64,000 nucleotides of DNA, taken from the NCBI GenBank assembly GCA_010015805.1, contig ML978125.1, forward strand, positions 1,426,001-1,490,000. Reading direction: 5' to 3'. Positions within the stretch are counted from its first letter, which is position 1; every line of letters starts with the position of its first letter. The notes beneath the pieces were generated by a model. The model saw only the letters and a program-made list of their open reading frames with translations, was not told the origin of the DNA and ran no database searches. Positions 41,375-44,124 of the stretch are shown piece after piece. The position numbers were made by a program, and so were the translations under genes. This stretch comes from Rhizodiscina lignyota (lineage: Eukaryota).

Positions 41375-41966
41375 TCAGATAACGAAGGCGTGGATGTTTT
41401 CGGCGTCAGCCAGATCATCGCTTCGCTTCTCAATGTCGGGTTCGATGATGAAGACTTCAGAAGTATTGTCAGTAGCCTGATCATCGCTGGAAGCGCTACG
41501 CTTCACAGTGAGAAACTTGACGTTTTCGGCCTCAGACTTCTCCTGAATTTGGTTGGTATCGCGCTTGTTAACTCTAACTATCCAGCCGTCGCTCTCGGAG
41601 CCGTCACGCTTGTTGGCTTTGACCAGCCAGCCGTCGCTCTCGGAATCGTCGCGCTCCGTGACTTTAAAATTGTTATTGGTATCAAACCAGTTGGCTGCAC
41701 TCTCGCTGCGAGTGCCGAGAACATCGCTTGGATTTGCTGCTTCGATGTCTTTCGTGTACGCACTCTGGCCTGACATGCCGTTAGCATGGACAGGACTGAC
41801 ATTCTTTGCGTAGGGCTCAATCAAATATCACACAGCGGTATGAGATACAACACTCGATCTCCGCTTTCCTCTTGGAAGACTCACCTGGAAGGGGCTGTGC
41901 CACTGGTACAGCAATGGCGGCAGCCGCCATGGCTGCAATGAGCATGTTGTTGAATGCGAGACACAT
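41375..41966 (-). CDS. Secreted Kex2-processed repeat protein, putative RiPP precursor, about 158 aa; intron 41770-41884
   Basis: Exon 1 MCLAFNNMLIAAMAAAAIAVPVAQPLP (signal peptide); GTGAGT donor, GCTAAC branch and CAG acceptor join in frame; KR-delimited repeats DDSESDGWLVKANKR and DGSESDGWIVRVNKR. Confidence 0.85.
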
Positions 41967-43106
41967 GATGTTCTAACCAAGATTTGCTTTGGTGGAAGCT
42001 TGTCTGTTGCAAGTATAGTGGAAGTTTAGAAAAGGTTAATGCAGGACTTTGACTTGGAGACTGAAGTGCGACGTTGCTCTTTTTATACATGTTGGTTTGA
42101 TTCTTCTTGATCTTGAGGAACGATCACTAACCTTGTTGGAAGGCCCAGAGGACTCGTACATTTCTCACCGCTAGCATGCACAATTTCCTCTCAGGAATAA
42201 CCATGTACAGCAACGCTGGTGCCATAGTCGATGAGGCCATTCCGATATCGAGGACGGCCCGTCGTCCTGGCCGACGAACCTTTTTGCCTGTTGCATCTTG
42301 CGGGTCAATCGCGGGCAACGAACAAGTCGAAACCCCTCATGTCGAGGATTGATGCTGCTGATGCCGGTATCCTATCTAATCTGAAGCGCTGCGTCTTGTG
42401 AATCAAGGTGCCGCTGATAAATGAAAATCTTGGGCAGCAGTTGACGTTTTGTCAGCGTTCAGTGACCGCTCGGCTGAGGGGTTTCTGGGGAGTTCTTGAA
42501 AGATGAGATCGTGAACAGACGGTGAGTAGCATCGGGCGATGGCATGCACGTACGGATGTTGTTACGAGATGTACGTCCTGGCTGAGCAGTGCAGATACTG
42601 ATGTTGTGTGCTACTTGGTCACTACATGAACGGCCAAAATGGCGTGCCAGGATGATATAGATGCGAACATCGGGAGAGATACACATGGTGACGATCCCGA
42701 AAAGAAGTCTTGGACTCCTGCACGCAGGAAGTTCGCCGCTTTGTCTCGTTGTGGAGAATGCGGGGATATTACGTTGACGCAGTTTGCTCCCAAAGAGTAG
42801 GCGGAGGTTGAACGGGCAGCCGCACTTGAGTTTCACAGAGACGGCCTGCATGTAACATGCCAACACCGCTTCCTTCAGGAGCTCAGTTTGTGTGTTCTAG
42901 ACCGCATGGTAGTATCTTTCGAATCTTCATGGTACTACAGCAAGGAATGTGTATCGCTTCGGCAAGTTTCAATCGCCTGGCTGAGTTTTCCTCATAATCA
43001 GTTTACGCATTGCCCTCTCTTTCTTACATGGTTAAGTATAAAGATTCTCCACAGCGCGCTGACATTGATCATAGCTATGATCCCCATTGCACTCTGTGCA
43101 ACAGCT

Positions 43107-44124
43107 ATGTCAAAACTGACCGGCTATCAGAAACTCCCCGTCACATGGAAAGAGGCACGATCGGAATCAGATGAAGAGGGGCTCCCTTTTCTCGATCACC
43201 CCACAGTTCGGAAGGTTGAAGACTCTGGCTTCCTCGTCCGACAGGCCATTCGATATCCGCAAGTCTGGGTGCCATGGATACTCGTCGCTTCTCTTGTTGG
43301 ATTCATCGTCTATCAGAACACCATCGGGCCCAGCGAACTAGCTTGCACTCGTCTCTTGAACCCATATTGTATGTCATTTTGCGTATCAGTCATTTCTTTC
43401 CCTGCTAACTGGTAACTACTATCTGGCAGCGCCACTCATCGAAGCCGGCGTAGTTTCATACTACGACACGGAGTTCGAGAATGAATTCGCACACAAGACA
43501 AAGTATCGTGGCCCCCCTACTCCAGAGCTTGAAGAAGCCTGGGATCAGCTTTGGAATCGTAAGGAATTTCACCCTTCTGCTTCAGTCAGTACACTGACCT
43601 TAACAAAGGCGGTGCGTTCGAGGTATCTCTTGATGGGCCCGCTCGACTGAACAAGTCGGGCGAAAGTTTGAAGCACGTTCACTGGGACCAAAAGAGGGGC
43701 TACTCTGCGTTGATGGAAGGGTTCATCAGCTTCACTGCCTCGTAAGGCATGCATCCCGCGCTTTATCGAGAATATGCTAACTGTCCATTAGAACTTGATC
43801 AGGCAGTATACCTGGAAAGATTACTACGCGAAGCACAACCATCTAATGGAATGGATGCACCGACCGGAGAATAAGCTAAAAGTGGACCTCAACGTGACGC
43901 ATGCACAGGACGTGGGCGATCGGATGCATGTTGACCATTGCATTGAGACACTGCGCCTCCAATTGATGTGCAATGGCGATGTGACACCATTGCTGATCAA
44001 CGTGGATAGCGAAAGTCCGCTTGGGAGTTCGGCGGATTTCAACACACATCACAAGTGCAGAGATTGGAATAAATTGGTCGAATGGCAAGACAAGCACAAC
44101 ATAGACATGGAGACGAGATCGTAA
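43107..44124 (+). CDS. DUF3328/UstYa-family oxidase; introns 43369-43429, 43559-43608, 43742-43791; apparent 1-bp frameshift at about 43719-43723 (pseudogene or sequencing error)
   Basis: Single N-terminal TM, YRGPPTPELEEAWDQL, HQLHCL|NLIR, HVDHCIETLRLQLMCNGD, DFNTHHKCRDW. Confidence 0.88.

What the first reader, a model, noticed from the sequence alone, without database searches (positions are those of the whole stretch)
41375..44124. Minimal fungal RiPP locus: Kex2-repeat precursor head-to-head with a DUF3328 oxidase
Seen: a spliced 158-aa signal-peptide protein with four KR sites and repeated units lies divergently, about 1.14 kb from a gene with both HXXHC motifs of DUF3328 (HQLHC, HVDHC). 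The ORF track misses both because they are split by introns. Known: a Kex2-repeat precursor plus UstYa/DUF3328 defines dikaritin pathways (ustiloxin, phomopsin, asperipin-2a, victorin). Inferred: a co-regulated two-gene pathway making modified or cyclised peptides that I cannot match to a known product.
Basis: partly seen in the sequence, partly recalled or inferred. Interest (0 to 1): 0.9.

Follow-up and report, generated by a model that had tools for sequence, protein, structure and literature searches.

The report
Broken oxidase beside peptide-precursor gene
A small secreted peptide-precursor gene does sit head-to-head with a UstYa-type oxidase gene, as in fungal cyclic-peptide pathways, but here the oxidase gene carries a one-base deletion that removes half of its copper site, so the pair is probably a decaying copy of a pathway that is intact in Xylaria fungi.

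Summary
The window is Rhizodiscina lignyota DNA. Both genes are already in GenBank as hypothetical proteins (KAF2099795.1 and KAF2099796.1).

**What holds up**
- The 158-aa spliced precursor model is exact.
- It has four KR sites, against 0.47 expected in shuffles (P = 0.0003).
- It has two tandem 15-aa units.
- It lies 1140 bp head-to-head with a PF11807 (UstYa) gene.

**What does not**
- The oxidase cannot read both HxxHC motifs. HQLHC lies one base out of frame with the conserved exon before it.
- A separate re-assembly of reads at 152x depth shows the same sequence.
- The annotated 281-aa protein avoids the break through a cryptic splice acceptor and lacks the first motif.
- In the family enzyme CctR, both motifs form a two-copper site, and alanine mutants of their His/Cys residues are inactive.

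**Relatives**
- The precursor's only relatives are four Xylariaceae repeat proteins and one metagenome locus.
- They share a Tyr-bearing unit, AYD[EK]DI[EA]AA[DN]P..VLG[KR]R.
- Each has a UstYa gene adjacent or nearby on the same contig. The four Xylariaceae oxidases fall in the same 34-member clade as this one.

**Verdict:** this is a member, probably non-functional, of an uncharacterised dikaritin-type family. Interest is modest. The intact Xylariaceae and metagenome clusters are the better targets.

The parts
41885..41966 (-). Precursor exon 1: ATG at 41966 and a hydrophobic signal-like N-terminus (27 codons plus 1 base).
   Evidence: The spliced model equals KAF2099795.1. The N-terminus aligns with those of the Xylariaceae relatives.
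41770..41884 (-). Precursor intron: 115 nt, GTGAGT...CTAAC...CAG, phase 1.
   Evidence: The metagenome relative L001 has a phase-1 intron at the same place, just after the signal region.
41375..41769 (-). Precursor exon 2, including the stop at 41377-41375. Acidic and predicted disordered. KR sites at residues 81, 96, 117 and 142.
   Evidence: The Atlas model has pLDDT 0.40 and pTM 0.18.
41708..41764 (-). 'AY unit', residues 30-48 (SAYTKDIEAANPSDVLGTR). This is the only part with relatives elsewhere and it holds the protein's only Tyr. It ends in TR where relatives have KR or RR.
   Evidence: Full HMMER search E 2.6e-5 to P0079. BLASTP 14/21, 13/19 and 11/16 identical to the three P0079 copies. 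12/19 identical to L001. Tyr count.
41559..41648 (-). Two tandem 45-nt units encoding D[DG]SESDGW[LI]V[KR][AV]NKR.
   Evidence: 80% DNA identity; 11 of 15 residues identical.
41967..43106 (.). 1140-bp divergent intergenic region. Inferred to be a shared promoter; not tested.
   Evidence: Coordinates. No RNA run was available.
43107..43368 (+). UstYa gene exon 1: N-terminal tail and a transmembrane-like stretch (VWVPWILVASLVGFIVY).
   Evidence: HMM positions 11-98.
43430..43558 (+). UstYa gene exon 2 (the YRGPPTPE region).
   Evidence: PF11807 positions 56-92, E 4.4e-5. Ortholog HMM positions 91-136.
43609..43741 (+). UstYa gene exon 3. It reads the conserved frame up to ...YSALMEGF. The remaining bases encode HQLHCL only in a frame shifted by one base.
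   Evidence: DNA alignment with two L001 UstYa genes.
43724..43725 (+). Site of the one-base deletion relative to orthologs, immediately before the first HxxHC motif (out-of-frame HQLHC at 43724-43738).
   Evidence: A read re-assembly at 152.6x word depth is identical over 41300-44200, with no indel.
43742..43791 (+). Ancestral intron 3 (GTAAGG...CTAAC...TTAG), at the same position as in two L001 UstYa genes. The GenBank model extends it to 43802, a cryptic AG inside the Arg codon of ..IRQ.., which brings exon 4 back into frame.
   Evidence: and 15/31 (P0002 equals model B).
43792..44124 (+). UstYa gene exon 4, with the second motif HVDHC (43927-43941), the conserved cysteines, and the stop at 44122-44124.
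   Evidence: PF11807 E 8.4e-21. Invariant columns retained. Ortholog HMM 181 bits.

Best explanation
This is a Rhizodiscina lignyota copy of an uncharacterised dikaritin-type (UstYa-dependent RiPP) locus that is otherwise seen in Xylariaceae. In that family, a secreted, disordered precursor with dibasic cleavage sites and a conserved Tyr-bearing 'AY unit' lies next to a membrane-bound, two-copper UstYa oxidase.

In the intact relatives the inferred mechanism is as follows. The precursor enters the ER, the UstYa enzyme oxidatively modifies or cross-links a core (the AY unit's Tyr is the best candidate), and Kex2 cuts at the dibasic sites in the Golgi.

In this genome the oxidase gene has a one-base deletion directly before its first HxxHC motif. 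Normal splicing gives a truncated product. The annotated cryptic-acceptor form lacks two of the four copper-binding His and one Cys, so the enzyme is most likely dead. The precursor keeps only one AY unit, whose dibasic site has become TR.

The locus therefore probably no longer makes a cyclised peptide. The precursor, if expressed, would at most give linear Kex2-cut peptides.

Shown: the gene models, the frameshift, the homology and the recurrence of the pairing. Inferred: secretion, Kex2 cleavage, loss of activity, and which unit is the core.
For: - **Gene models and identity.**
- **Frameshift.** Thirteen aligned family members show ..E[VA]FHQLHCLNLIRQYTW.. where the annotated protein reads ..EGFISFTASQYTW...
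- **HMM scoring.** An HMM of 15 orthologs gives 400.9 bits to a read-through with X at the break, 360.9 to the annotated model, and 325.0 (in two pieces, HMM 135-172 lost) to a both-motif splice model. Six-frame HMM hits change frame at the same place.
- **Intron position.** The intron after HQLHCL is at the same position in two other UstYa genes.
- **Read support.** A re-assembly at 152.6x word depth is identical over 41300-44200, with 0 differences and 0 gaps.
- **Motif function.** In CctR, HxxHC(x)nHxxHC forms a binuclear copper site, and alanine mutants of the conserved His and Cys completely lost activity (PMC12435403, passages read).
- **Precursor relatives.** Of 1.84 billion representatives, only P0079 (Xylaria grammica) is a credible relative. 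Its family has 4 members.
- **Pairing in those four.** Three have a UstYa gene on the next locus tag or accession and on a contig of the same length: KAI0413080/81, EKO27_g9904/9905, ANO14919_134290/134280. The fourth has IDs two apart on a contig of the same length.
- **Same oxidase clade.** Those UstYa proteins fall in the same 34-row clade as the window's (SH-aLRT 99, tree of 79 rows). P0002 is 60% identical to P0089 over 228 aa.
- **Metagenome locus L001.** A 166-aa precursor ends in one AY unit and lies head-to-head (744 bp) with a UstYa gene. The locus also has a Zn2Cys6 regulator and a second UstYa.
- **Tyrosines.** All 11 Tyr of the five database family proteins lie in AY units (read by eye).
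Against: - No RNA data could be had, so it is unknown which acceptor is used or whether either gene is expressed.
- Exon 4 after the break is fully open and keeps every invariant residue. The deletion is therefore recent, or the shortened protein is still under selection for some role.
- The read set is probably the one the assembly came from. A mutation confined to the sequenced culture cannot be excluded.
- No whole genome was held, so a paralogous UstYa acting in trans cannot be excluded. Fungi average about 6 DUF3328 genes per strain (9399 in 1461 strains, PMC7329392, section read).
- Motif essentiality was shown for CctR, not for this clade.
- The L001 UstYa genes belong to other clades of the tree, so the AY unit is not tied to one oxidase clade.
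- Adjacency in Xylariaceae rests on locus tags, accessions and contig lengths. I could not see the DNA.
Confidence: 0.6

Rival explanations
1. One reading: an active, co-regulated two-gene dikaritin pathway that makes a new modified or cyclised peptide in R. lignyota. The oxidase function would come from this gene (through a splice form or recoding) or from a paralogue acting in trans.
For: The pair is head-to-head, and the pairing recurs in relatives. Exon 4 is undecayed. KR sites are strongly enriched. Eighteen alternative single-intron models give an open frame holding both motifs. Asperipin-2a needs only one UstYa homologue for its cyclisations (PMC6514808, passages read).
Against: All 18 alternative models replace part of the conserved segment before HQLHC with 10-29 out-of-frame residues or delete most of it. 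The one scored gets 325 bits against 401 for the read-through. The sequence at the break is not a slippery X XXY YYZ heptamer (my reading). The annotated protein lacks the first motif. The His/Cys of both motifs are essential in CctR. The window holds no second UstYa, regulator, transporter or tyrosinase.
Confidence: 0.15
2. The 158-aa protein is not a RiPP substrate. It is an ordinary Kex2-processed or disordered secreted protein (pheromone-like or effector-like), and its position next to a UstYa gene is inherited baggage without a functional link.
For: 78% of published KEPs have no DUF3328 gene nearby (PMC7329392, abstract and section read). The protein has only two clear repeats and fails the rule of three or more. 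The AY unit occurs with UstYa genes of different clades. The weak Atlas feature hits include alpha-factor-type precursors (score 0.83, below the 0.9 level and so a lead only).
Against: Every detectable relative of the precursor (4 of 4 database proteins and the 1 metagenome locus) has a UstYa gene adjacent or nearby on the same contig. DUF3328 genes peak at the position next to KEP genes. Tyr, the usual dikaritin cross-link residue, is confined to the conserved unit.
Confidence: 0.15
3. The frameshift is a base-calling or assembly error, or a mutation private to the sequenced culture. The species' gene would then be intact.
For: There is only one read set, probably the assembly's own source. 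The downstream exon shows no decay.
Against: A different assembler at 152.6x word depth gives the identical sequence with no indel. The break is not in a homopolymer run of more than two bases. The depositors' own gene model also had to avoid it.
Confidence: 0.1

Closest known systems
Asperipin-2a cluster of Aspergillus flavus (aprA precursor, aprY UstYa homologue, aprT, aprR)
   Same: A small dikaritin cluster in which a single UstYa/DUF3328 enzyme next to a Kex2-type precursor does the cyclisations (PMC6514808, passages read).
   Different: AprA carries many copies of a Tyr-rich core (FYYTGY). Here there are only two 15-aa repeats without Tyr and one Tyr-bearing unit. There is no transporter or reductase gene nearby, and the oxidase gene is frameshifted.
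Ustiloxin and phomopsin clusters (ustA + ustYa/ustYb + ustQ; phomA + several UstYa homologues)
   Same: A signal peptide plus KR-flanked units, DUF3328 genes beside the precursor, and Tyr ether cross-links (PMC6514808; PMC7329392).
   Different: Those clusters have 2-5 UstYa genes, a tyrosinase, a methyltransferase, a peptidase and a regulator. None of these is in this window. There is no sequence similarity of the precursor to anything but the AY-unit family.
CctR, the DUF3328 hydroxylase of cyclochlorotine biosynthesis
   Same: The same Pfam family (PF11807). UniRef names the window's protein 'Cyclochlorotine biosynthesis protein O'. The architecture is also shared: an N-terminal tail, a TM helix and HxxHC(x)nHxxHC.
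   Different: CctR acts on a non-ribosomal peptide and has both motifs. The window's encoded protein has only the second.
Kex2-processed repeat proteins (KEPs) as defined by Umemura 2020
   Same: A secreted small protein with KR sites and repeated units. 22% of KEPs have DUF3328 neighbours, most often at the adjacent position.
   Different: The definition asks for three or more tandem repeats of eight or more aa between dibasic sites. This protein has two. 'Rhizodiscina' does not occur in the three supplementary files held as text.
AY-unit precursor + UstYa pairs of Xylariaceae (X. grammica KAI0413080.1/KAI0413081.1 and EKO27_g9904/9905; Xylariales sp. ANO14919_134290/134280; Nemania sp. F5Y14DRAFT_400930/400928) and metagenome locus L001. 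All are uncharacterised.
   Same: A homologous signal region and AY unit. The UstYa is from the same 34-row clade (60% identity). L001 has the same head-to-head layout and the same phase-1 intron.
   Different: The relatives carry 2-3 AY units ending in dibasic sites, or (L001) five copies of a 20-aa hydrophobic unit plus one AY unit. The UstYa proteins P0089 and P0008 and both L001 genes keep HQLHC in frame. Outside the AY unit and the signal region, no similarity to any relative of the Rhizodiscina precursor was detected.

Membership tests
UstYa / DUF3328 (PF11807) | Significant match to the Pfam model | tested here: met
   Exon 4: E 8.4e-21, 75.3 bits against a cut-off of 25. Exon 2: E 4.4e-5. 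The precomputed PF11807 hit is on P0002.
UstYa / DUF3328 (PF11807) | Two HxxHC motifs in one reading frame (the binuclear copper site) | tested here: not met
   HVDHC is in frame. HQLHC is one base out of frame with the conserved upstream exon. The annotated protein reads GFISFTAS at that place.
UstYa / DUF3328 (PF11807) | N-terminal transmembrane helix and conserved C-terminal cysteines | tested here: met
   The hydrophobic stretch VWVPWILVASLVGFIVY is in exon 1. C221, C231 and C260 are invariant columns in alignment A1. No TM predictor was run.
Kex2-processed repeat protein (KEP, Umemura 2020) | Signal peptide | tested here: inconclusive
   The N-terminus is hydrophobic and aligns with the relatives' N-termini. 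SignalP was not available.
Kex2-processed repeat protein (KEP, Umemura 2020) | Three or more tandem repeats of eight or more aa between dibasic sites | tested here: not met
   Only two 15-aa units were found. TRF found none. The rule is quoted from PMC7329392 Methods.
Kex2-processed repeat protein (KEP, Umemura 2020) | Dibasic (KR) sites more frequent than chance | tested here: met
   Four KR sites against 0.47 expected, P = 0.0003.
Dikaritin-type RiPP locus | Precursor gene next to a DUF3328 gene, with the pairing recurring in relatives | tested here: met
   Adjacent here (KAF2099795.1/796.1). Three of 4 Xylariaceae relatives have consecutive tags or accessions, and 1 of 4 is on a contig of the same length. 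L001 is head-to-head.
Dikaritin-type RiPP locus | A cyclised or modified peptide product derived from the precursor | not testable with these tools
   This needs LC-MS/MS of cultures or of heterologous expression.

The most novel reading that the evidence does not exclude
The AY-unit precursors and their UstYa neighbours (Xylariaceae, L001, Rhizodiscina) form a new, undescribed dikaritin subclass. In it, the invariant Tyr of AYD[EK]DI[EA]AA[DN]P is cross-linked by the copper oxidase. The Rhizodiscina locus is still productive, through a trans-acting paralogue or a still-functional shortened oxidase, and yields a new Trp- or Tyr-containing peptide from a precursor that has swapped most of its units.
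Probability: 0.08. Interest if true: 0.65.

Novelty: new member of a known kind. Interest (0 to 1): 0.3.

Why it matters
For this genome, the result removes a false lead. The 'minimal RiPP pathway' has a broken class-defining enzyme, so expressing the native pair is unlikely to give a cyclic peptide.

It also shows how motif spotting across reading frames, and gene models that splice around a frameshift, can hide a disabled enzyme. The GenBank protein looks complete at 281 aa.

On the positive side, the work links an orphan protein to a small, undescribed family of Tyr-unit precursors that have UstYa oxidases adjacent or nearby in Xylariaceae. It also points to intact clusters (the X. grammica pair, and metagenome locus L001 with two oxidases and a regulator) as better starting points for finding a new dikaritin-type product. 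The distribution is patchy: 31 of the 34 clade members are Xylariales. That makes the locus a small case study of the loss, or possibly transfer, of a fungal RiPP cluster.

Tried and rejected
- **RNA evidence.** The single run search listed no RNA holder, so splicing and co-expression could not be examined.
- **Whole genome.** None is held, so paralogous UstYa genes and other precursor copies could not be counted.
- **Tandem Repeats Finder** on the precursor gave 0 rows. The repeats were found with the repeat finder instead (after one search failed on strand syntax).
- **Word-index search with the precursor** found only itself.
- **P0080**, a 1073-aa repeat protein, is the second hit of the HMMER search (E 5e-4). 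I set it aside as a compositional match of acidic repeats.
- **ESM Atlas.** All feature scores were below 0.9 and all structure TM scores below 0.5, so it gave no usable lead beyond 'disordered'.
- **Earlier notes of this scan.** There was nothing on this genome, and only unrelated bacterial repeat peptides by words.
- **Literature search for six motif strings of the AY unit and the L001 core.** All ten listed papers matched only 'aydedi', all ten in Turkish medical journals; no listed paper matched the other five strings.
- **Search of 'Rhizodiscina lignyota'.** Eleven papers hold the name. No title or abstract among the 10 listed concerns RiPPs, and the one I opened mentions it only for a swainsonine-like cluster.
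- **Programmed -1 frameshifting** was considered and rejected by eye, because the sequence at the break is not a slippery heptamer.
- **A very short intron at the break** was considered and rejected. The only GT..AG there would be 9 nt.
- **The core-like resemblance** between the window's ..EVFIIEPDIEKR and L001's ..IVNIVRPDQIEKR was seen by eye only. BLASTP does not report it, so it is not used as evidence.
The counts given were made by eye.
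Full report
**Source and annotation.** The precursor exon 2 is 100% identical to GenBank KAF2099795.1 (NA57DRAFT_55736, 158 aa, Rhizodiscina lignyota). The oxidase gene is the next record, KAF2099796.1 (NA57DRAFT_75301, 281 aa). Both are annotated as hypothetical proteins, so the genes themselves are not new.

**Precursor.**
- Its N-terminus is hydrophobic, and the rest is acidic. The ESM Atlas holds a low-confidence model (pLDDT 0.40), which fits a disordered precursor.
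- There are four KR dipeptides, against 0.47 expected from shuffles of the mature part (P = 0.0003).
- The repeats are modest. Two tandem 45-nt units are 80% identical (41559-41648) and encode D[DG]SESDGW[LI]V[KR][AV]NKR (11 of 15 residues identical). There are also two short sub-repeats. Tandem Repeats Finder finds nothing.
- The published KEP definition asks for three or more repeats of eight or more aa between dibasic sites (PMC7329392, Methods read). This protein does not meet it.

**Oxidase gene.**
- The ATG is at 43107, 1140 bp from the precursor ATG and on the other strand.
- Exon 4 matches PF11807 (UstYa) at E 8.4e-21 and exon 2 at 4.4e-5.
- With consensus splice sites (exons 43107-43368, 43430-43558, 43609-43741, 43792-44124), the frame that carries the conserved text ...RGYSALMEGF continues as ISFTAS and stops two codons into exon 4. 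HQLHCL is encoded by the same bases, but one base out of frame.
- An alignment with 12 relatives shows ..E[VA]FHQLHCLNLIRQYTW.. at this place. The GenBank protein P0002 instead reads ..EGFISFTASQYTW.. because its model uses a second AG 11 nt further on (43803), which happens to restore the frame.
- That AG lies inside the Arg codon of ..IRQ.. and is also present in two other UstYa genes. In those genes the intron ends at the position equivalent to 43791, directly after HQLHCL.

**Scoring the alternative models.**
- An HMM of 15 orthologs gives 400.9 bits to a read-through with X at the break, 360.9 to the annotated model, and 325.0 (split in two, HMM 135-172 missing) to a splice model that carries both motifs.
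- Eighteen such both-motif models exist. All of them translate 10-29 codons out of frame or delete most of the conserved segment.
- Six-frame HMM hits switch frame at the same point, and there is no other UstYa gene in the window.

**Is the deletion real?** One public run holds the stretch. Its independent contig, at 152.6x word depth, is identical over 41300-44200 with no differences and no gaps. It is probably the read set behind the assembly. This rules out an assembler artefact, but not a mutation private to that culture.

**Consequence.** For the DUF3328 enzyme CctR, the two HxxHC motifs form a binuclear copper centre on a four-helix bundle, and alanine mutants of the conserved His and Cys completely lost activity (PMC12435403, passages read). 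Two HxxHC motifs have also been proposed as the mark of RiPP-related DUF3328 proteins (PMC12048977, passages read). The protein encoded here has only the second motif, so I infer that it is inactive. This inference has not been tested on this clade.

**Relatives of the precursor.**
- A word-index search found only the protein itself.
- A full HMMER search of 1.84 billion representatives found one credible relative, P0079 of Xylaria grammica (E 2.6e-5). P0079 carries three copies of AYD[KE]DIEAA[DN]P.EVLG[KR]R.
- The window protein has one such unit directly after its signal region (residues 30-48, SAYTKDIEAANPSDVLGTR). It is 14/21, 13/19 and 11/16 identical to the three copies.
- The signal regions also align.
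- Searching with P0079 gave a family of four Xylariaceae proteins with 2-3 units each.
- All 11 tyrosines of these four proteins and the window protein lie in these units (by eye).

**Is the pairing conserved?**
- Three of the four relatives sit on the locus tag or accession next to a UstYa gene, on contigs of identical length: KAI0413080.1/KAI0413081.1, EKO27_g9904/EKO27_g9905 and ANO14919_134290/ANO14919_134280.
- The fourth (F5Y14DRAFT_400930 and _400928) shares the contig length, with identifiers two apart.
- The Rhizodiscina pair itself (KAF2099795.1/796.1) calibrates this proxy.
- I built a tree of 79 UstYa rows: 76 of the 77 hits (one of 193 aa was dropped), plus P0089 and two approximate L001 proteins. 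In it, the window's protein and all four precursor-adjacent Xylariaceae proteins fall in one clade of 34 rows (SH-aLRT 99).
- Of those 34 rows, 31 are named Xylariales. The others are Rhizodiscina, Alternaria rosae and one unnamed row (names).
- P0002 is 60% identical to P0089 over 228 aa.

**Metagenome locus L001.**
- The one metagenome scan returned one locus, 16.2 kb of a 64-kb contig.
- It encodes a 166-aa precursor with the same phase-1 intron after the signal region, one divergent and five near-identical copies of SSLAEDPVIAIVKPDNVGKR, and a single C-terminal AY unit. That unit is 12/19 identical to the window's.
- The precursor lies head-to-head (744 bp between ATGs) with a UstYa gene. 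The locus also holds a Zn2Cys6 regulator and a second UstYa.
- These two oxidases keep HQLHC in frame, but they belong to other clades of the tree. The AY unit therefore travels with more than one oxidase lineage.

**Neighbourhood in the window.** There are no further RiPP-type genes. Upstream lie MutS, uroporphyrinogen decarboxylase, DnaJ and a weak Kre9/KNH-like ORF. Downstream lie a HET-domain gene, an alpha/beta hydrolase, a SET-domain gene and ankyrin repeats.

**Interpretation.**
- The working-pathway inference fails on the enzyme. The most likely state is a decaying copy, for three reasons: the oxidase is broken just before its first copper motif, the precursor retains a single AY unit whose dibasic site is now TR, and there are no accessory genes.
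- Which unit is the true core in intact relatives is open. The AY unit is the only universally conserved part and the only Tyr-bearing one. Tyr is the cross-link residue in ustiloxins, phomopsins and asperipin-2a (PMC7329392; PMC6514808). However, L001 multiplies a Tyr-free hydrophobic unit instead.

**Limits.**
- No RNA data were available, and no fungal genome DNA for synteny.
- No SignalP or TM predictor was run.
- Adjacency in Xylariaceae is inferred from identifiers.
- The motif's essentiality is taken from one enzyme of the family.
- The supplement check of PMC7329392 covered only the three files held as text.
- No paper found by the searches describes this precursor family. That is a statement about those searches only.

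Noticed in passing
L001:701-8210: A metagenome contig carries what looks like a complete dikaritin-type cluster. It has a 166-aa precursor (ATG 7652) with five copies of a 20-aa hydrophobic unit plus one AY unit, a head-to-head UstYa gene (5846-6907), a Zn2Cys6 regulator (3169-5392) and a second UstYa gene (701-1793). On the tree, its oxidases sit next to Xylariaceae proteins.
   Followed up: partly
P0007 (Xylaria grammica EKO27_g9905): In a second X. grammica assembly, the UstYa protein next to the precursor is also garbled exactly around the first HxxHC motif. It reads ..VGTAGCSRF--SINCTAWYVTR.. where the other strain's P0089 has ..RGYSGMLEVFHQLHCL... This is either a frameshift or assembly error there, or a second independent disruption.
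   Followed up: partly
P0095 (cluster of P0020): A Lasiodiplodia mahajangana protein sits in a cluster of at least 90% identity with Nemania and Hypoxylon UstYa proteins. This is odd for a Dothideomycete and suggests contamination or recent transfer.
   Followed up: no
window 28443-29735 (-) and 44459-46824 (-): Two HET-domain (heterokaryon incompatibility) genes. The second lies directly downstream of the UstYa gene and appears to be split over two frames at about 44935-44941.
   Followed up: no
window 24036-26735 (-): A long ORF (899 aa) with a C-terminal RyR domain (E 9.5e-11) and no other Pfam match.
   Followed up: no
window 57996-58919 (+): An ORF with an OTT_1508-like deaminase domain (E 2.9e-20).
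   Followed up: no
window 30299-37706: A housekeeping block: a MutS homologue (two ORFs, 30299-33390, minus strand), uroporphyrinogen decarboxylase (33668-34261) and a DnaJ gene (36477-37706). It shows that the RiPP-like pair sits at the edge of conserved core genes rather than in a secondary-metabolite island.
   Followed up: no
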